Source: Escherichia coli
GTDB lineage: Bacteria; Pseudomonadota; Gammaproteobacteria; Enterobacterales; Enterobacteriaceae
Strand: one strand, 5' to 3'
Length of the DNA: 64,000 bases
Assembly: GCF_965641715.1 (NCBI RefSeq)
Contig: NZ_OZ282453.1
Shown here: one piece after another, positions 9,013 through 47,420 of the stretch
How positions within the stretch are numbered: the stretch's first letter is position 1
Layout of the letters: every line of letters begins with the position of its first letter
The notes under the pieces: model-generated
Told to the model about the DNA's origin: nothing
Database searches by the model: none
What the model saw: the letters and a program-made list of their open reading frames with translations, nothing else
Program-made: the position numbers and the translations under genes

Positions 9013-10950
9013 TCAGTAACGACGTCCCCATTCCGTGGCGCTCATCAACGTCGGTTTATCCCCCATGAAATAGCGGTAGTAAGCGTCATAAGCCAGCACG
9101 TTCTTCACATAACCGCGCGTCTCGGAGAACGGAATACTCTCGACAAATGCCACAGCGTCGATACGCCCGGCGCTGTTGCCAAGCCAGGTTCGCACCCGTC
9201 CAGGTCCGGCGTTATAAGCTGCTGAGGAGAAAATACGGTTATTACCAAATTGCTGATAAACATATTGCAGGTAACTGGTGCCAATGTTGATATTCGTTTC
9301 CGGATCCAGCAATTGCCCAGGGCTGCTATAACCAGGAATAGAGAACATCTTCACCGTATGGGTCGCCGTGCCCGGCATAATCTGCATCAGGCCGCTGGCC
9401 CCTACCGGTGATTTCACTTTCGGATTCCAGGCGCTCTCCTGACGGGCAATCGCCATCGCATAGCTTTGCGGGATCTCCTTCCCACTGGTGTAACGTTTGA
9501 AAAGATCGTTGTAAGCCAGCGGGAATCGCTCTTCCAGATGATCCCAAAGCTTCCCGGCGATCGTTGCCTGAACGCTAAGATCCCACCATTGGTTGTTGAA
9601 AGCATACCGCGCCAGTTGAGCCTGCTCTGTTTTTGACTTGCTCTTCACCAGATTGGCCCACTCGCTACGCGCGGTGTTATCGAGATTCCAGTACATCAAC
9701 TCGCGCACGCGCGCCATCTCCGGCCCCTGAGTCAGGGCGCTGTCAACATTCTGCGGCGCTTTATCAATCTTCAGCTCATACTCTTCGCCGATGCGTTGTG
9801 CAGCAACCATCGGGTAGAAACCACGCTGTTGCATGAGTTGATGCAAAATCTCTTTTGCTTCAGCTTCACGTCCGCGTTCCAGCAATAAATCCGCCTGCCA
9901 GTAACGCCATTCATCTTTCTCTTTCGCCTCCATCGGCAAACGCGCCAGCCAGGTATTCAGGCCACGACGATCGCCGGTGCCAAGCGCCATTCGTACACGG
10001 CGTTCAATAAGCGAAGTAGATTGCGAGCGCATAATGGCGTCATCGCGCCATTTCGCCTGCTCGTCGGTGACATCGTTGCCCATCAAACGCCAGGCGACGA
10101 TATCGCGCAGCTCCTGAATCTGATCTTCATTAAGCTGCTGCGCCTGGGCAAGCGATGGGATCATCAGCCGTGCATTCTCAGCATCCTGCCGCGCCACACT
10201 GGCAAACGCCACCGCCGCCATTTGACGGGTAAAATCGGTCGCTCCGGTTGTACGCGCGAAGGTCAGTACCGTATTAGGGTTGTTCGCCAGTGAAATGATT
10301 GCCGAGGCGATAGTCTGGTAATCGGCAGGCATCTGCCCTGCCAGCACTGTTACCAGGCCTGTGTTACCCGCTTTCATCGCCAGACGGATACGCTCTAAAT
10401 ACGCCAGCGGATCTTGTTTACCTGACGCACGCCAGACGCTAAATAACTTGTCACAGGCGTTAGGCTGGCTCTTGCCGGTTAGCCACAGCTCTTTCGCCCC
10501 TTGCCAGGCTTCTTCACTCTGCCCGGTGTTCCATTTCGCATAGTAGTAATTACATTGCGCTTCGGTAGTTCCGGGCTTTTCCGGGCTAAAGGCTAACAAG
10601 CCACGCCAGTCTTCACGCCGCGCCAGTTCATTGACGAAACGAGATTGCAGCGTGCGAGCGGGAGGAAGCGTGGGGTTAGCGCGAACAAAGTTAGTGACCG
10701 TCACCGCCGGTTGATTCATCAGATCATCGGTGATCTGGCGGTATTCCAGGTAGGGATAAAGCGGATAATCCTTCAGTCCAGGCATCATTTGTTCGACCAC
10801 ATCCATTTGTCGATTATCCCAGGCCTGCTTGATTTGCGCGTAACGACTACGCTGCTCATCCAGTGAGTCGGCTCGCGCCACGCTGCTGACCGTCAGCAGA
10901 CAGACACCGGCAGCCAACAGCCGCCAGGTAACTTGTTTGGCTTTTTCCAC
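9013..10950 (-). CDS. slt: soluble lytic murein transglycosylase Slt70 (ORF-track start 10980; recalled Slt start MEKAKQ reads VEKAKQ here, so the true start is uncertain)
   Basis: signal peptide, superhelical repeat domain, C-terminal lysozyme-like domain with E-S motif (ARQESAWNP). Confidence 0.9.
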   Translation of the reverse strand: MEKAKQVTWRLLAAGVCLLTVSSVARADSLDEQRSRYAQIKQAWDNRQMDVVEQMMPGLKDYPLYPYLEYRQITDDLMNQPAVTVTNFVRANPTLPPARTLQSRFVNELARREDWRGLLAFSPEKPGTTEAQCNYYYAKWNTGQSEEAWQGAKELWLTGKSQPNACDKLFSVWRASGKQDPLAYLERIRLAMKAGNTGLVTVLAGQMPADYQTIASAIISLANNPNTVLTFARTTGATDFTRQMAAVAFASVARQDAENARLMIPSLAQAQQLNEDQIQELRDIVAWRLMGNDVTDEQAKWRDDAIMRSQSTSLIERRVRMALGTGDRRGLNTWLARLPMEAKEKDEWRYWQADLLLERGREAEAKEILHQLMQQRGFYPMVAAQRIGEEYELKIDKAPQNVDSALTQGPEMARVRELMYWNLDNTARSEWANLVKSKSKTEQAQLARYAFNNQWWDLSVQATIAGKLWDHLEERFPLAYNDLFKRYTSGKEIPQSYAMAIARQESAWNPKVKSPVGASGLMQIMPGTATHTVKMFSIPGYSSPGQLLDPETNINIGTSYLQYVYQQFGNNRIFSSAAYNAGPGRVRTWLGNSAGRIDAVAFVESIPFSETRGYVKNVLAYDAYYRYFMGDKPTLMSATEWGRRY

Positions 10951-25974: not shown

Positions 25975-26395
25975 ATGCCGGATACGGCCTACGGTTCGGC
26001 ACAGACTTGTAGGCATGATAAGACGCGACAAGCGTCGCATCAGGCATTGTGCGCCAACTGCCGGATGCGGCGTGAACGCCTTATCCGGCCTACGGTTCGG
26101 CACAAACCTGTAGGCATGATAAGACGCGACAAGCGTCGCTTCAGGCATTATGCGCCGACTGCCGGATGAGGCGTGAACGCCTTATCCGGCCTACGGTTCG
26201 GCACAGACTTGTAGGCATGATAAGACGCGACAAGCGTCGCATCAGGCATTGTGCGCCAACTGCCGGATGCGGCGTGAACGCCTTATCCGGCCTACGGTTC
26301 GGCACAAACCTGTAGGCATGATAAGACGCGTTAAGCGTCGCATCAGGCATTATGCGCCGACTGCCGGATGCTGCCTACGAAGGGCAAACTACCCA
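25975..26395. repeat. tandem array of about 4 BIME/REP units (period about 98-100 bp)
   Basis: near-identical repeats of gccggatgcggcgtgaacgccttatccggcctacggttcggcacaaacctgtaggcatgataagacgcgacaagcgtcgcatcaggcat... Confidence 0.75.
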
Positions 26396-32042: not shown

Positions 32043-33677
32043 TTGGTTTTGTCGCTACATGATAAATTATTAATGCATAACTTCGCATTAGCCAATAAAA
32101 AAAGCCCTGACTTCATATCTGAACTTCCTCAAATTGAACCTAAACCATACAGCAATGGACATAAAATTAAATGGATAAACCACACACTTACTAGCACTGA
32201 AGTTACTCCGCCTGATAACCTGATTAAAATATGCATATTGATTGAGTCAGGGGAAATTGCTATAACATCAGTAAGTGATATTGCCAATTTACTTGGAGTT
32301 CCTGCTGGCCAATTACTTTATATACTATATCGTAAAAAAGATAATTATCGTACTTTTGAAATAGAAAAGAAGAATGGTAAAAAAAGAGTCATTAATGCTC
32401 CTTGTGGCGGTCTATCGATACTCCAAACGAGACTAAAGCCCGTTCTTGAATATTTCTACAGGCCAAAGAAATCTGCTCATGGTTTTATAAAAGGAAAGAG
32501 CATCATTACTAATGCTGGGATGCATATTAAAAAAAAATTTGTCGTAAACATTGACCTAGAAAACTATTTCGAATCAATAAGTTTTGCTAGGGTTTATGGA
32601 ATATTTAAAAGTAAACCTTTTAATTTTTCTCATCCAGCAGCTACTGTTTTAGCTCAGTTATGTACTCACAATGGAAAATTACCTCAAGGTGCGTGTACAT
32701 CGCCAATATTAGCAAATATTGCATCAGCTTCTCTAGACAAACAGCTCACCCAATTTGCAGGAAGAAAAAAAATATCTTATTCTAGGTATGCTGACGACAT
32801 AACTTTTTCTTTCAATCAGAGAAATATTGATATAATCAAAAAAAACGACGACGGAAGTTATAGTCTTAGTGAAACTATAGACAATATTATTTCAAAAAAT
32901 GGCTTTAAAATAAATTATGATAAATTTAGAGTTCAAACCAGAAATACAAGACAAAGTGTTACTGGCTTAGTGGTTAATGATAAAGTTAACATTAACAGAA
33001 GATATATAAGAATTACACGTTCAATGATTCATAGATGGACAGATGATAAGCTAAAGTATGCACTTCTCTTTGCTACAGAAAAAGGATATCAGGCAAAGGA
33101 TAATAACCACGCAATTCAAATTTTCCGAAATCATATTTATGGAAGACTTAGCTTTATAAAAATGGTTAGAGGGAAAGACTATCCAGGATATTTAAAACTG
33201 ATGTCATACATGAGTCATAACGATCCATTAAAAACCCAAGAAGGATTGCGAGCAATGAAAGAAACAGAAAACTTTGATGTTTTTATATGCCATGCAAGCG
33301 AAGACAAAAAAGACATTGCAATTCCAATATATGACGAGTTAACTAAACTTAAAATTTCAGCCTTCATAGATCATGTTGAGATAAAATGGGGCGACTCCTT
33401 AATTGAGAAAATAAATGCAGCACTAGTTAAATCAAAATATGTCATCGCTATTTTATCTGCTAATTCAGTCAATAAGGAATGGCCTCAAAAAGAATTAAGA
33501 GCAGTTTTAGCCAGCGAAATATCGAGTGGCGACGTAAAACTTTTGACCCTATTAAAAAAAGAAGACAAGGAGGTCGTAAACCTATCATTACCTTTACTTA
33601 GTGATAAGTTTTATATGGTCTATGATAATAATCCTGAAGTAGTCGCCAACAATATTAAATCACTCTTACAACGATAA
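32043..33677 (+). CDS. retron-type reverse transcriptase fused to a C-terminal TIR domain (544 aa)
   Basis: RT motifs NAP, VNIDLENYFESI, TSPILANI, YSRYADDITFSF (YxDD) and retron-specific VTG (SVTGLVVN); C-terminus FDVFICHASEDKKDIAIPIYDEL...NKEWPQKEL is TIR-like. Confidence 0.85.
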   Translation: MVLSLHDKLLMHNFALANKKSPDFISELPQIEPKPYSNGHKIKWINHTLTSTEVTPPDNLIKICILIESGEIAITSVSDIANLLGVPAGQLLYILYRKKDNYRTFEIEKKNGKKRVINAPCGGLSILQTRLKPVLEYFYRPKKSAHGFIKGKSIITNAGMHIKKKFVVNIDLENYFESISFARVYGIFKSKPFNFSHPAATVLAQLCTHNGKLPQGACTSPILANIASASLDKQLTQFAGRKKISYSRYADDITFSFNQRNIDIIKKNDDGSYSLSETIDNIISKNGFKINYDKFRVQTRNTRQSVTGLVVNDKVNINRRYIRITRSMIHRWTDDKLKYALLFATEKGYQAKDNNHAIQIFRNHIYGRLSFIKMVRGKDYPGYLKLMSYMSHNDPLKTQEGLRAMKETENFDVFICHASEDKKDIAIPIYDELTKLKISAFIDHVEIKWGDSLIEKINAALVKSKYVIAILSANSVNKEWPQKELRAVLASEISSGDVKLLTLLKKEDKEVVNLSLPLLSDKFYMVYDNNPEVVANNIKSLLQR

Positions 33678-42928: not shown

Positions 42929-43257
42929 CAGTTCACCACCTGTTCAAACTCTGCGCTGAACTCAACACGCAGCATACTGACCCGCGACGACCATTTTGCG
43001 CAGGTCACCTTTATCTGCCGCCACTCATAAGGCGGCGTCCACAGAAAGGATTTCCAGCCCCCGTGCTCTTCCAGAAACGACTCCAGTACCGTGGCCTCCT
43101 CACGGGGGACAGAAAGCGTCACGCTGTACGTTTTCAGGTTGGCATTCAGCCCGGCAGGCGCTCGCTGGGAATAGCCATCACCAAAGCGCACCTTTCTTAC
43201 AGAAGGGGCCGAAGCCACATCCATACCGGGTTTCACTTTCCAGCGGAAGGTTTTCAT
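42928..43257 (-). CDS. tail tip protein M
   Basis: 109 aa, MKTFRWKVKPGMDVASAPSVRKVRFGDGYSQRAP. Confidence 0.9.
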   Translation of the reverse strand: MKTFRWKVKPGMDVASAPSVRKVRFGDGYSQRAPAGLNANLKTYSVTLSVPREEATVLESFLEEHGGWKSFLWTPPYEWRQIKVTCAKWSSRVSMLRVEFSAEFEQVVN

Positions 43258-45833
43258 CGTCCACCTCCGGAGAACAGGCCACCATCACGCATCTGTGTCT
43301 GAATTTCATCACGGGCACCCTTGCGGGCCATGTCATACACCGCCTTCAGAGCAGCCGGACCTATCTGCCCGTTCGTGCCGTCGTTGTTAATCACCACATG
43401 GTTATTCTGCTCAAACGTCCCGGACGCCTGCGACCGGCTGTCAGCCAGACTGCCCGGTGTACCGACATAACCACCGGTGGCATAGCCGCGCATCAGCCGG
43501 TAGAGATTCCCCACGCCAATCCGGCTGGTTGCCTCCTTCGTGAAGACAAATTCACCACGGTGAACAATCCCCGCTGGCTCATATTTGCCGCCGGTTCCCG
43601 TAAATCCCCCGGTCGCAAAATGGAATTTCGCCGCAGCGGCCTGAATGGCTGTACCGCCTGACGCGGATGCGCCGCCACCAACAGCCACGCCAATGGCGCT
43701 GCCGATACTCCCGACAATCCCCACCATTGCCTGCTTAAGCAGAATTTCTGTCATCATGGACAGCACGGAGCGGGTGAAGCTGCGCCAGTTCTGCTCACTG
43801 CCGGTCAGCATCGCCGCCATATTCTGTGCAATACCATCAAAGGTCTGCGTGGCTGCACTTTTTACCTGCGACATACTGTCCGTGGCGCTCTCTTCCCACT
43901 CACTCCAGCCGGACTTCAGGCCTGCCATCCAGCTCCCGCGAAGCTGGTCTTCAGCCGCCCAGGTCTTTTTCTGCTCTGACATGACGTTATTCAGCGCCAG
44001 AGGATTATCGCCATACTGTTCCTTCAGGCGCTGTTCCGTGGCTTCCCGCGCTGCCTGCCGGTCAGTCAGCCCCCGGCTTTTCGCATCAATGGCGGCCCGT
44101 TTTGCCCGTTGCTGCTGTGCGAATTTATCCGCCTGCTGCGCCAGCGCGTTCAGGCGCTCCTGATACGTAACCTTGTCGCCAAGTGCAGCCAGCTGGCGTT
44201 TGTACTCCAGCGTCTCATCTTTATGCGCCAGCAGGGATTTCTCCTGTGCAGACAGCTGGCGACGTTGCGCCGCCTCCTCCAGTACCGCGAACTGACTTTC
44301 TGCCTTCCACAAATCCCGGCGCTGCTGGCTGATTTTCTCATTCGCTCCGGCATGCTTCTCCAGCATCCGGAGTTCTGCCTGAAGCGTCAGCAGGGCAGCA
44401 TGAGCACTGTCTTCCTGGCGATCGCCTGCAGACACTTTCACGCCGGACTGCTTCGGCTTTTTCAGCGTCGCTTCATAATCCTTTTTCGCTGCCGCCATCA
44501 GCGTGTTGTAATCTGCCTGCAGGATTTTCCCGTCTTTCAGTGCCTTATTCAGTTCTTCCTGACGGGCGGTATATTTCTCCAGCGGCGTCTGCAGGCGTTC
44601 GTAAGCCTTCTGCGCCTCTTCGGTATATTTCAGCCGTGATGCCTCAGACTCGGCCCAGTCCTTTGCTGCCATCTCTCTGGCCTTTTCAAGATCGGCCTGC
44701 AACGTGGCGGCTGAAAGCCCAAGTTGCGCATTCGCTCTGTCCTCCCATGCTCCCCGGAGATTGGCAAGAAATGCTGAGGTTTTACCGCGCCGGTGGCTCC
44801 GGCTCTGATACCACTGCCATTTTTTGTCCGCCTCATCAAAAGCCTTTTCTGCTTTCTCCAGCATTCCCTGGGCAGTGTCCGGGCGACCAATATCCAGCAC
44901 CGAATCCCACATGGATTTGAATGCCCGTGCTGTCCTGTCTGCCCAGGTCTCCAGCGTGCCCATGTTCTCTTTCAGGCGGCGGGTCTGGTCATCAAACCCT
45001 TTCGTTGCGGCCTCGTTCGCCGCCTGCAATGCCCCGGCTTCATCTCCGGAACGCTGCAACTGAGCAACATACGCAATCTGCTCCGCCGTCACGTTATGGA
45101 ACTGACGTGCCATCGCTGTCAGTCCCGACGTCGGGTCTGTGGTCAGCTTCCCGAAGGCTTCAGCGACCTTGTCCACCTCCACGCCGGATGCAGAGGAGAA
45201 ACGCGCCACACTCTGGCTGATCGCCTCAAACTGCTCACCACCACGCACACCGGCATTCACCAGCGCCGTCAGTGACTCGCTGGTCTGGTTAAACGTCAGC
45301 CCTGCCGCCTGCCCGGCTCTGGACAGGACCAGCATGCGATCTGCCGTCAGACCCGACTGATTGCCGGAAAGGACCAGCGTTTTGTTGAAATCGGACAGGG
45401 TTGAGTTGCCCTGATACCAGGCATACGCCAGCGCACCGGTCGCCACTGCCAGCGAGGTGGCCCCGACCATCGGCAGGGTGATCGCACCGGCAAGTCCCCT
45501 GAACATGGGGATCATACCGCCGAAGGAGTCCTTCACCTGACCACCCTGTTGCAGCAGGATCAGCCACGGACTCTGCCCGCCTGCAAGCTGCGTGGCCACG
45601 TCGGTGAACTGTGCAGGAAGCATACGCATGGCGGCTTTATACTGTCCGACGGAAATCCCCGCTTTCTGTGCAGCCAGCGCCTGCCGGTTCATTGACTGTT
45701 CAACGACTGCCGCTGTTTTTTTCGCATCACTTTCCGTACCGGAAAAATGACGCCTGACTCTGGCCATCTGCTCGTCAAATCTGGCCGCATCCAGACTTAA
45801 ATCAACGACCAGATCGCCTACCGGTTCAGCCAT
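43254..45833 (-). CDS. tail tape measure protein H
   Basis: 859 aa, long coiled-coil, lambda H-like N-terminus MAEPVGDLVVDLSLDAARFDEQMARVRRHF. Confidence 0.9.
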   Translation of the reverse strand: MAEPVGDLVVDLSLDAARFDEQMARVRRHFSGTESDAKKTAAVVEQSMNRQALAAQKAGISVGQYKAAMRMLPAQFTDVATQLAGGQSPWLILLQQGGQVKDSFGGMIPMFRGLAGAITLPMVGATSLAVATGALAYAWYQGNSTLSDFNKTLVLSGNQSGLTADRMLVLSRAGQAAGLTFNQTSESLTALVNAGVRGGEQFEAISQSVARFSSASGVEVDKVAEAFGKLTTDPTSGLTAMARQFHNVTAEQIAYVAQLQRSGDEAGALQAANEAATKGFDDQTRRLKENMGTLETWADRTARAFKSMWDSVLDIGRPDTAQGMLEKAEKAFDEADKKWQWYQSRSHRRGKTSAFLANLRGAWEDRANAQLGLSAATLQADLEKAREMAAKDWAESEASRLKYTEEAQKAYERLQTPLEKYTARQEELNKALKDGKILQADYNTLMAAAKKDYEATLKKPKQSGVKVSAGDRQEDSAHAALLTLQAELRMLEKHAGANEKISQQRRDLWKAESQFAVLEEAAQRRQLSAQEKSLLAHKDETLEYKRQLAALGDKVTYQERLNALAQQADKFAQQQRAKRAAIDAKSRGLTDRQAAREATEQRLKEQYGDNPLALNNVMSEQKKTWAAEDQLRGSWMAGLKSGWSEWEESATDSMSQVKSAATQTFDGIAQNMAAMLTGSEQNWRSFTRSVLSMMTEILLKQAMVGIVGSIGSAIGVAVGGGASASGGTAIQAAAAKFHFATGGFTGTGGKYEPAGIVHRGEFVFTKEATSRIGVGNLYRLMRGYATGGYVGTPGSLADSRSQASGTFEQNNHVVINNDGTNGQIGPAALKAVYDMARKGARDEIQTQMRDGGLFSGGGR

Positions 45834-46266
45834 ACCGGACTCCTCCTGCGATCCCTTCTGATACTGTCATCAGCATTACGTCATCCTCCGTCATGCCCGC
45901 CACATCCGGGGAAGCGGGGATAACTTCATTCCCGTCCGGGTCAAAGCGGACGCCTCCGGCAAGCCCTGCCGCTTTCTGCATCAGCACATCATCTTCAGGC
46001 TCTTCGTCAGCCTCACGCCGGTTCAGCAGACTGAAATCCAGCGGATGCATATCCGGATCGCTGAAAAACAGGCTGAGCACGGTGTACGTCAGCCCGGAAA
46101 AGTGCATATCCAGCAGAACATCATGAAAATAATGGGTACTGTAAAAGCGGTGCCAGTCGGCATACTCCGTGGATGACATCCCGGCAAGCATGGCGCGCCA
46201 GTCGGGTCGCCCCATCTCACGCGCCAGTTTCAGGGCAAAACTCAGCTCACCGTCGAACACTTTCCC
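45826..46266 (-). CDS. T portion of the tail assembly chaperone G-T, expressed by -1 frameshift from G
   Basis: -1 frame ORF directly overlapping the 3' end of G; slippery heptamer GGGAAAG present on the minus strand at the overlap. Confidence 0.7.
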   Translation of the reverse strand, partial: GKVFDGELSFALKLAREMGRPDWRAMLAGMSSTEYADWHRFYSTHYFHDVLLDMHFSGLTYTVLSLFFSDPDMHPLDFSLLNRREADEEPEDDVLMQKAAGLAGGVRFDPDGNEVIPASPDVAGMTEDDVMLMTVSEGIAGGVRYG

Positions 46267-46664
46267 GCAGAAACAGGCTCTGCAGGCCCGGCGTCATCTG
46301 CCTGTTCAGGTGCATCATTCACAACAAACTCAGACATACCGGACAGACGCATTACCACATTTTCAGCCTGAGCAATTGCCTCTGTGGGCCAGGTGGTAAG
46401 CACTTCCTGCTCAATTTGTTTAACGGCTTCATTCATGGATGGCATCTTTGTCTTCTGCGGATGGTTATGCCACAGGGACATCGCCACCAGAAAAGCACCG
46501 GTTCTGACGAGATCTTCCACGCTCACCTGTCGATTGACACTGGAGCCCGCCTGTTCTGCCTGTCGTTTCAGCAGGGCGAGATGCTCAATACGCTGCAGGG
46601 CTGACAGTTCAGAAAGCGTGACGCTCACACCGTTATATTCAAATGATTCGGTTTTCAGGAACAT
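46242..46664 (-). CDS. tail assembly chaperone G
   Basis: 140 aa, MFLKTESFEYNGVSVTLSELSALQRIEHLALLKRQ. Confidence 0.85.
   Translation of the reverse strand: MFLKTESFEYNGVSVTLSELSALQRIEHLALLKRQAEQAGSSVNRQVSVEDLVRTGAFLVAMSLWHNHPQKTKMPSMNEAVKQIEQEVLTTWPTEAIAQAENVVMRLSGMSEFVVNDAPEQADDAGPAEPVSAGKCSTVS
46260..46266 (-). promoter_or_regulatory. programmed -1 ribosomal frameshift slippery site (GGGAAAG) for G-T
   Basis: plus-strand ctttccc at the G/T overlap. Confidence 0.6.
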
Positions 46665-46679
46665 CGCTGACTCTCCGGA

Positions 46680-47420
46680 TTAACTGTCGGTGACGGTGAT
46701 TTCTGCAACCGCAGCAAGTTCACCATTACCGGATACAACCGGAATGTTGACCTTGCCTGCAGCAACGCCGTTCACGGTGATGGTCATACCGCTGACCGAC
46801 ACGGTGGCTTTTGTTTTATCCGCAGACACCGCACGGAAGCTCTTGTCGGTTGCGCCCTCCGGCTGGAATGCCACGGTCAGCGTGGTGCTCTGCCCTTTCA
46901 CCACCGAAGTGCTGGCAGGCGTCACGGTCATGCCGGTTGCCGCTGTTACCGTGCTGCGATCTTCTGCCATCGACGGACGCCCCACGTTGGTGACTTTCAC
47001 CGTGCGGGTGATCACTTCCTTCGCCGTCACCGCCTTACCGATACTGCTGACCCAGCCGCGGAACACATCGACCGTGCCGTTCGGGAAGCGGATTTTATAG
47101 GCACGGGTATCCCCTTCATTAAACCACGCCAGCAGCGCCTGCTGCCCCTGCTCTCCGGGCATCCACGCCAGCGTGAAGCTGGTATCTCCGGCAGATTTCT
47201 GCCCCTGCCCGGTCGCAGTCCAGTCCGCATCTTCATCATCGAGATAGCTGTCGTCACAGGACTCAGCGGTCAGTTCGCCGGGCGTCAGGTCTTTAACTTT
47301 TGCCAGACGCAACCAGTCAACGTCTGAAAGCGGATTCGCATAAGGGTTACCGCTCCCCTTATAAACCCACAGGGTGGTCCCGGCACCTTTCACCGGCATT
47401 ACAGGATTTGGTACAGGCAT
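46680..47420 (-). CDS. major tail tube protein V (start at MPVPNPV)
   Basis: [36 protein letters not shown]..., C-terminal Ig-like domain. Confidence 0.9.

What the first reader, a model, noticed from the sequence alone, without database searches (positions are those of the whole stretch)
45826..46664. Conserved G-T programmed -1 frameshift
The heptamer GGGAAAG sits at the overlap of the G ORF and the -1 frame T ORF, matching the classic lambda tail chaperone frameshift. This is expected biology, recorded because it explains two overlapping ORFs that are not independent genes.
Basis: partly seen in the sequence, partly recalled or inferred. Interest (0 to 1): 0.25.

Follow-up and report, generated by a model that had tools for sequence, protein, structure and literature searches.

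The report
Lambda-type G–T tail chaperone frameshift
This is the well-known phage lambda "G-T" programmed -1 ribosomal frameshift, sitting in a lambda-like prophage of an Escherichia-type chromosome; it is real and correctly interpreted, but ordinary.

Summary
Confirmed, and already known. On the minus strand, ORF G (46664..46242, 140 aa, Pfam Phage_TAC_2, E 7e-56) is overlapped by a -1-frame ORF T (46260..45826, 144 aa, Pfam Phage_tail_T, E 2e-14). The pair lies between the major tail protein V and the tape-measure protein H. GGGAAAG lies at 46266..46260 in the phase G GGA AAG, 15 nt before the G stop. Phage lambda (NC_001416) has it at the same nucleotide position (399-405 of an 839-nt unit) and phase. 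The unit is 93.8% identical to lambda without gaps, and the predicted fusion is 279 aa in both. The heptamer is not enriched in the window overall (7 found, 7.4 expected), so its significance comes from position and conservation. It is invariant in 62 distinct related G-T units, including three synonymous sites, whereas 76% of other G third positions vary. The base pair after it changes the would-be T "start" GTG to GTC, GTA, GCG or GCA in relatives, and T has no Shine-Dalgarno sequence, so T is not an independent gene. A predicted downstream stem is suggestive but lacks covariation support. The exact G and T proteins occur on hundreds of public contigs. Interest is low.

The parts
46242..46664 (-). 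Gene G: tail assembly chaperone gpG, 140 aa, the product of standard (0-frame) translation
   Evidence: ORF. Pfam PF06894 Phage_TAC_2, E 7.4e-56, covering 1-125 of 126 profile positions. 86.5% aa identity to lambda gpG. The exact sequence is on 498 public contigs named 'phage minor tail protein G'.
46671..46676 (-). Shine-Dalgarno-like GGAGAG, 6 nt upstream of the G ATG
   Evidence: Direct reading of the upstream context CGACAGTTAATCCGGAGAGTCAGCGATG.
46260..46266 (-). Slippery heptamer G GGA AAG (0-frame phase), the site of the -1 shift to GGG AAA G
   Evidence: Same position (nt 399-405 of the unit) and phase as lambda. Invariant in 62 distinct related units. 15 nt before the G stop in 78 of 82 sequences examined; of the other four, two have upstream indels and two are partial copies lacking G.
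45826..46260 (-). T segment: -1-frame ORF of 144 codons, translated only as the C-terminal half of the gpGT fusion (predicted 279 aa: G residues 1-135 followed by T)
   Evidence: ORF. Pfam PF06223 Phage_tail_T, E 2.3e-14. 98.6% aa identity to lambda T and the same 279-aa fusion length. No SD at usable spacing. The GTG at 46260 is replaced by GTC, GTA, GCG or GCA in relatives.
46182..46252 (-). Predicted RNA stem structure starting 7 nt 3' of the heptamer; a possible but unproven frameshift stimulator
   Evidence: MFE z = -2.35 against dinucleotide shuffles. z = -2.2 against a synonymous-codon null. 96% of cells paired in 23 relatives but no compensatory covariation, and 109/500 shuffles do as well. 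Other T segments are equally extreme.
46680..47420 (-). Context: major tail tube protein V, upstream neighbour and binding partner of the T domain
   Evidence: Pfam Phage_TTP_12 E 4.9e-70 plus Big_2. 96-100% nt identity to lambda V.
43254..45833 (-). Context: tape-measure protein H (859 aa), downstream neighbour and binding partner of the G domain. Its ATG overlaps the T stop by 8 nt and is preceded by AGGAGGAG
   Evidence: Pfam TMP_2 E 1.7e-70 and Tape_meas_lam_C E 3.7e-21. SD context.

Best explanation
This is the lambda-type tail assembly chaperone locus G/GT, expressed through a programmed -1 ribosomal frameshift. Ribosomes start at the G ATG (46664, minus strand). Most terminate at the G stop and make gpG (140 aa). 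A few percent slip back one base when the P-site tRNA-Gly is on GGA and the A-site tRNA-Lys (anticodon mnm5s2UUU) is on AAG. Both tRNAs re-pair on GGG and AAA, and translation continues in the T frame to give gpGT (279 aa). By homology with lambda, the G part binds the tape-measure protein H. The T part recruits the major tail protein V, so the tail tube polymerises around H. Neither protein ends up in the virion. Shown here: the ORF geometry, phase, homology and conservation. Inferred from lambda experiments: the frameshift itself, its rate (about 4%) and the chaperone function.
For: ORF geometry and gene order V-G-T-H. Lambda-specific Pfam families for G and T. Ungapped 93.8% identity to lambda G-T, with the heptamer at the identical position and phase and an identical 279-aa fusion. 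GGGAAAG is present in every related locus that includes this region, and sits 15 nt before the G stop in 78 of 82 sequences examined. It is invariant in 62 distinct units, including its 3 G-frame third positions, whereas 76.5% of other G third positions vary; the naive chance of that is 0.235^3, about 0.013. G, H and V have SD sequences but the T frame does not. The first T-frame codon after the slip is a non-start codon in several relatives. The surrounding head and tail module is complete and about 97% identical to sequenced lambdoid phages. Literature: GGGAAAG is lambda's G/GT slip site, read in the 0 frame about 96% of the time, and the ratio depends on tRNA-Lys U34 thiolation (PMC3296357). 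The 30:1 gpG:gpGT ratio is crucial for tail assembly, and G_GGA_AAG is highly shift-prone in E. coli (PMC5009743, PMC7618472).
Against: Nothing in the sequence argues against it. The limits are these. No protein or ribosome-profiling data exist for this prophage. Whether the prophage is inducible was not established. The related sequences are phylogenetically linked, so the conservation statistic overstates independence. Positions 408-423 are dual-coding and would be conserved anyway.
Confidence: 0.95

Rival explanations
1. T is an independent gene, translated from its own start: either the GTG at 46260 listed by the ORF finder and used in the lambda and PGAP annotations, or the internal ATG at T codon 16 used in the phiSTEC1575-Stx2k annotation. 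The heptamer would then be incidental.
For: ORF finders and RefSeq/PGAP list T as a separate CDS. One phage record starts T at the internal ATG. The exact T sequence is catalogued as a stand-alone protein on 292 contigs.
Against: The only purine-rich stretch upstream of the GTG is the heptamer itself, 2 nt or less from the codon, which is too close to act as an SD. In relatives that codon is GTC, GTA, GCG or GCA, none of them a start codon, while the heptamer is invariant. The internal ATG has no spaced SD (sequence). The three synonymous sites of the heptamer are invariant, which protein coding alone does not explain. In lambda the T sequence is reported only as part of the frameshift product gpGT (PMC5009743, PMC3296357).
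Confidence: 0.02
2. The fusion is made by transcriptional slippage (RNA polymerase stuttering) rather than by ribosomal slippage.
For: Transcriptional slippage produces frameshifted products in some bacterial and phage genes (reviewed in PMC5009743, PMC4256274).
Against: The site has runs of only three G and three A. As far as I know, established transcriptional slippage sites are homopolymer runs of about 6-9 or more. In lambda, the dependence of the gpG:gpGT ratio on tRNA-Lys U34 modification points to the ribosome (PMC3296357).
Confidence: 0.01
3. The locus is a silent relic. The geometry is intact by descent, but the prophage is defective, so the frameshift is never used in this host.
For: The other end of the prophage (integrase, immunity and replication regions) lies outside the window or was not examined. 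Two related loci (L002, L072) have indels in G that put the heptamer out of phase, so decayed copies may exist.
Against: All head and tail ORFs from the terminase to J are full length and collinear with lambda and with sequenced lambdoid phages at about 97% identity. G and T have no disruptions, and T is 98.6% identical to lambda T. This rival concerns use, not identity, and is compatible with the main explanation.
Confidence: 0.1

Closest known systems
Bacteriophage lambda G / G-T programmed -1 frameshift (Levin, Hendrix & Casjens 1993; Xu, Hendrix & Duda 2013, 2014)
   Same: Same heptamer GGGAAAG, at the same position (nt 399-405 of G) and phase, 15 nt before the G stop. Same ORF lengths (140 and 144 aa, fusion 279 aa) and same V-G-T-H gene order. 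T is 98.6% and G 86.5% identical at the protein level.
   Different: 52 nucleotide substitutions, 47 of them in the first 381 nt of G. The rest of the prophage is not lambda: it has a different lysis module, is inserted beside prfC, and carries a retron RT-TIR gene at its edge.
Conserved tail assembly chaperone frameshift of long-tailed dsDNA phages (Xu, Hendrix & Duda 2004, Mol Cell)
   Same: Two overlapping ORFs between the major tail gene and the tape-measure gene, the second reached by a -1 shift at a slippery sequence near the end of the first.
   Different: That class is defined by synteny and includes phages with no sequence similarity to lambda G/T, and some with other shift types. This locus is a close sequence homologue of the founding member.
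E. coli dnaX -1 frameshift (A AAA AAG, producing the gamma subunit)
   Same: X XXA AAG type heptamer that exploits the weak AAG pairing of the single E. coli tRNA-Lys(mnm5s2UUU).
   Different: From my own knowledge, dnaX shifts at about 50% and depends on an upstream SD-like element and a strong downstream stem-loop. Here no upstream SD-like element is conserved, and the downstream stem is only a prediction without covariation support.

Membership tests
Lambda-type tail assembly chaperone G/GT with programmed -1 frameshift | Two overlapping ORFs located between the major tail (tube) protein gene and the tape-measure gene | tested here: met
   V (Phage_TTP_12), then G, then T, then H (TMP_2 and Tape_meas_lam_C), all on the minus strand.
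Lambda-type tail assembly chaperone G/GT with programmed -1 frameshift | The downstream ORF is in the -1 frame relative to the upstream ORF and overlaps its 3' end | tested here: met
   G codons are phased from 46664 and T codons from 46260/46266. The offset is -1 and the ORFs overlap by 19 nt.
Lambda-type tail assembly chaperone G/GT with programmed -1 frameshift | Slippery heptamer X XXY YYZ in 0-frame phase near the end of the upstream ORF | tested here: met
   G GGA AAG at 46266..46260, 15 nt before the G stop.
Lambda-type tail assembly chaperone G/GT with programmed -1 frameshift | Sequence homology to gpG and gpT | tested here: met
   PF06894 at 187.8 bits (cut-off 27) and PF06223 at 54 bits (cut-off 25.9). 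86.5% and 98.6% identity to lambda.
Lambda-type tail assembly chaperone G/GT with programmed -1 frameshift | The slip site is conserved among relatives beyond what coding requires | tested here: met
   Invariant in 62 distinct units, including 3 synonymous sites, against 76.5% variable G third positions. The flanking bases at +1 and +2 vary.
Lambda-type tail assembly chaperone G/GT with programmed -1 frameshift | The downstream ORF lacks its own translation initiation signals | tested here: met
   No spaced SD before the T frame, while G, H and V have one. GTG is replaced by non-start codons in relatives.
Lambda-type tail assembly chaperone G/GT with programmed -1 frameshift | A G-T fusion protein is actually produced at a low percentage and is required for tail assembly | not testable with these tools
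   Known for lambda (PMC5009743, PMC3296357). No expression data exist for this locus.
dnaX-type stimulated -1 PRF (upstream SD-like element plus downstream stem-loop) | Conserved SD-like element about 10-14 nt upstream of the heptamer | tested here: not met
   The upstream 12 nt differ among relatives (GCCTGTTTCTGC, TGATTTTTCTGC, ACCGATCACGGC) and contain no GGAGG-like motif.
dnaX-type stimulated -1 PRF (upstream SD-like element plus downstream stem-loop) | Downstream stem-loop or pseudoknot 5-9 nt after the heptamer, supported by covariation | tested here: inconclusive
   A stem is predicted 7 nt downstream with z = -2.35 and -2.2. Only 1 compensatory cell was found and 109/500 shuffles do as well. 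Other T segments are equally stable.

The most novel reading that the evidence does not exclude
The GC-rich stem that begins 7 nt 3' of the heptamer (window ~46252..46182, minus strand) could be a conserved stimulatory or tuning element that sets the few-percent frameshift rate. It keeps 96% of its pairs across relatives through GC-to-GU changes only. That would make the lambda G-T signal more than a bare slippery heptamer.
Probability: 0.15. Interest if true: 0.3.

Novelty: already known. Interest (0 to 1): 0.08.

Why it matters
It matters mainly for annotation. The two overlapping ORFs are not independent genes, and the real second product is a 279-aa G-T fusion. Standard pipelines do not annotate that fusion: PGAP lists G and T separately, and the exact fusion sequence is absent from a collection of about 15 billion proteins although G and T are present on hundreds of contigs. 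Biologically it indicates that this prophage retains an intact lambda-type tail assembly pathway. It adds no new mechanism.

Tried and rejected
(1) Enrichment of the heptamer in the window: none (7 found, 7.4 expected), so frequency is not the argument.

(2) A genome-wide scan for in-phase slippery heptamers with long -1 extensions gave 14 hits. All but G-T come from shadow ORFs over real genes. This includes an A AAA AAG at 59626 that lies over a holin gene.

(3) Rfam: no curated frameshift element at gathering threshold, and only noise (E above 5) around the site.

(4) Downstream stimulatory stem: tested by dinucleotide shuffles, alignment folding, pair counting, a synonymous-codon null and synonymous-site variability. 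It is suggestive but not distinguishable from the background of T, so it is not claimed.

(5) Upstream SD-like stimulator: not present and not conserved.

(6) The apparent exceptions L002 and L072 are explained by indels upstream in G, not by alternative slip sites. L009 is a partial copy that still has the in-phase heptamer, L062 lacks the G region, and L079 is normal.

(7) I tried to read Levin et al. 1993 and Xu et al. 2013 directly, but they are not held. I relied on reviews and on Maynard et al. 2012.

(8) I looked for the exact source genome. The best E. coli complete-genome match is 97.9% for the tail module and 99.3% for the chromosomal flank (O55:H7/O157:H7 lineage), so the strain is not in that collection.

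Full report
**Observation.** The finding's coordinates (45826..46664) are, on the minus strand, exactly the start codon of a 140-aa ORF (46664..46242) through the stop codon of a 144-codon ORF (46260..45826) that overlaps it by 19 nt. Reading the minus strand gives ...CCT GTT TCT GCG GGA AAG TGT TCG ACG GTG AGC TGA. GGGAAAG lies at 46266..46260. In the upstream ORF's frame it reads G GGA AAG, the canonical X XXY YYZ phase. One base back it reads GGG AAA GTG and stays open for 144 codons. The upstream ORF's stop is 15 nt after the heptamer. The only omission is that the strand was not stated.

**Is it more than chance?** The heptamer as such is not enriched: there are 7 copies in the 64-kb window against 7.39 +/- 2.8 in dinucleotide shuffles. 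A scan of all stop-to-stop ORFs of at least 100 codons found 112 in-phase X XXY YYZ sites, 14 of them with a -1 extension of at least 100 codons. All except this one come from shadow ORFs lying over real genes. One example is the A AAA AAG at 59626, which overlies a Phage_holin_8 gene. G-T is the only case where the heptamer is within 10 codons of the 0-frame stop and where both halves are recognisable protein domains. Mononucleotide shuffles of the window give 0.23 such long extensions on average.

**Identity.** The upstream ORF matches Pfam PF06894, 'Bacteriophage lambda tail assembly chaperone, TAC, protein G' (E 7.4e-56, full profile length). The downstream ORF matches PF06223, 'Minor tail protein T' (E 2.3e-14). 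The neighbours are the lambda tail tube protein V (PF16461, E 4.9e-70) and a lambda-family tape-measure protein (PF06791 and PF09718). Lambda itself (NC_001416) annotates G at 9711..10133 and T at 10115..10549. The window's G-T unit and lambda's are both 839 nt and align without gaps at 93.8% identity. GGGAAAG is at nt 399-405 in both, and the predicted fusion is 279 aa in both. gpG is 86.5% and T 98.6% identical to lambda.

**Conservation.** 143 phage records match the unit (best 98.6%, phages PhiR11_1 and ev099), and 4654 of 5426 complete E. coli genomes carry a match to the surrounding 12 kb. Eighty IMG/VR loci encoding relatives (54-99% identity in the best segment) were fetched. GGGAAAG lies 15 nt before the G stop in 78 of the 82 sequences examined. 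Of the other four, L002 and L072 have indels further upstream in G that put an otherwise intact heptamer out of phase. L009 is a partial copy that still has the in-phase heptamer, and L062 lacks the G region. L079, which I also inspected, is normal.

In a MAFFT alignment of 62 distinct complete units the seven bases are invariant. That includes the three that are G-frame third positions, whereas 76.5% of the other G third positions vary (naive chance 0.235^3, about 0.013). The two bases immediately 3' do vary. As a result the 'GTG start' of T becomes GTC, GTA, GCG or GCA in relatives, which argues against independent initiation of T. SD-like sequences at normal spacing precede G (GGAGAG), H (AGGAGGAG) and V (GAGGA), but not the T frame.

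**Mechanism.** The mechanism is inferred by homology to lambda. GGGAAAG is lambda's G/GT slippery sequence, and the 0 frame is kept about 96% of the time. The gpG:gpGT ratio responds to 2-thiolation of tRNA-Lys(UUU) U34 and affects phage yield (PMC3296357; PMC7618472). The roughly 30:1 ratio is crucial for tail assembly. gpG and the G part of gpGT bind the tape-measure protein, the T part binds the major tail protein, and neither is in the virion. G_GGA_AAG is one of the highly shift-prone heptamers in E. coli (PMC5009743). The sequence here allows both tRNAs to re-pair perfectly in the -1 frame (GGA to GGG, AAG to AAA).

**Stimulators.** No SD-like element is conserved upstream, and Rfam has no family here. 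The 120 nt downstream fold into a GC-rich structure starting 7 nt after the heptamer (MFE -48.1 kcal/mol, z = -2.35). Across 23 distinct relatives 96% of cells stay paired, and seven pairs change on one side only (GC to GU). However, there is only one compensatory cell, and 109 of 500 column shuffles do as well. Against a null that keeps the T protein and randomises synonymous codons, the 81-nt stem region has z = -2.2 (1.7% of null sequences are as stable). Other segments of T reach -3.6 and -2.6. Synonymous variability in the stem is only mildly lower than elsewhere (45% against 66% of sites). I therefore do not claim a stimulatory structure, and it remains the one open question.

**Context.** The head and tail module from the terminase to J is complete and collinear with lambda. 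It is about 97% identical to sequenced lambdoid phages such as phiSTEC1575-Stx2k and Kati. The prophage abuts prfC, and the chromosomal flank is 99.3% identical to E. coli of the O55:H7/O157:H7 lineage. PGAP annotates G and T as two separate CDSs. The exact G and T sequences are on 498 and 292 public contigs, while the fused product is absent from the protein collection.

**Verdict.** The finding is real and correctly interpreted, and it is already known: a close homologue of the founding example of tail-chaperone frameshifting. Interest is low. Its only practical value is correct annotation of the 279-aa fusion.

Noticed in passing
window 32043..33677 (+): A 544-aa ORF encoding a reverse transcriptase fused to a TIR domain (PADLOC RT-TIR_XII, E 2.5e-187; Pfam RVT_1 and TIR_2). 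It is a retron-type single-gene anti-phage defence candidate. It sits at the prophage edge between the tail-fibre genes and prfC, and the same arrangement is annotated in E. coli EC13.
   Followed up: partly
window 46283..46664 (-) (G nt 1-381), compared with flanks 45826..46282 and 46680..47420: 47 of the 52 substitutions against lambda in the G-T unit fall in the first 381 nt of G (82-91% identity per 100 nt). V, T and most of H are 95-100% identical. This looks like a mosaic or fast-evolving patch that ends just before the slip site.
   Followed up: partly
window ~44620..44920 (-) within H (alignment columns 2500-2800 of V-H against lambda): An indel-rich, poorly alignable patch in the tape-measure gene (30-72% identity, 68 gap columns). 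H is 859 aa here against 853 aa in lambda.
   Followed up: no
window 59767..59858 (-): ARAGORN calls an unusually long (92-nt) tRNA-Arg(tct) that the Rfam tRNA model does not report at gathering score. It may be a degenerate or insert-bearing phage tRNA.
   Followed up: no
window 59864..61513 (-): The tRNA-Met/tRNA-Arg pair (61359..61513) matches the tRNA cluster that precedes stx2 in the closest phage, phiSTEC1575-Stx2k. Here no stx ORFs follow. Instead there is a TerB-like 181-aa ORF (59864..60409).
   Followed up: partly
window 58413..59749 (-): The lysis module is not lambda's. It has a Phage_holin_8 holin candidate and a GH108 plus PG_binding_3 endolysin.
   Followed up: partly
window 26012..26292 (-) and 12907..12985 (-): Four copies of the naRNA4 (CssrE) REP-type element, three of them in tandem about 100 nt apart.
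   Followed up: no
L002 1501-2340; L072 1501-2334: Two IMG/VR relatives carry the heptamer out of phase because of indels upstream in G. In L002, G is truncated and T falls in the same frame as the G start. These are either sequencing errors or decayed prophage copies.
   Followed up: partly
window 45826..46664 (-); L082 6828-7666; L084 16988-17826: Annotation is inconsistent across public records. Lambda and PGAP start T at the GTG inside the heptamer, phiSTEC1575-Stx2k starts T at an internal ATG (129 aa), and none of the records inspected joins G and T as a slippage product.
   Followed up: yes
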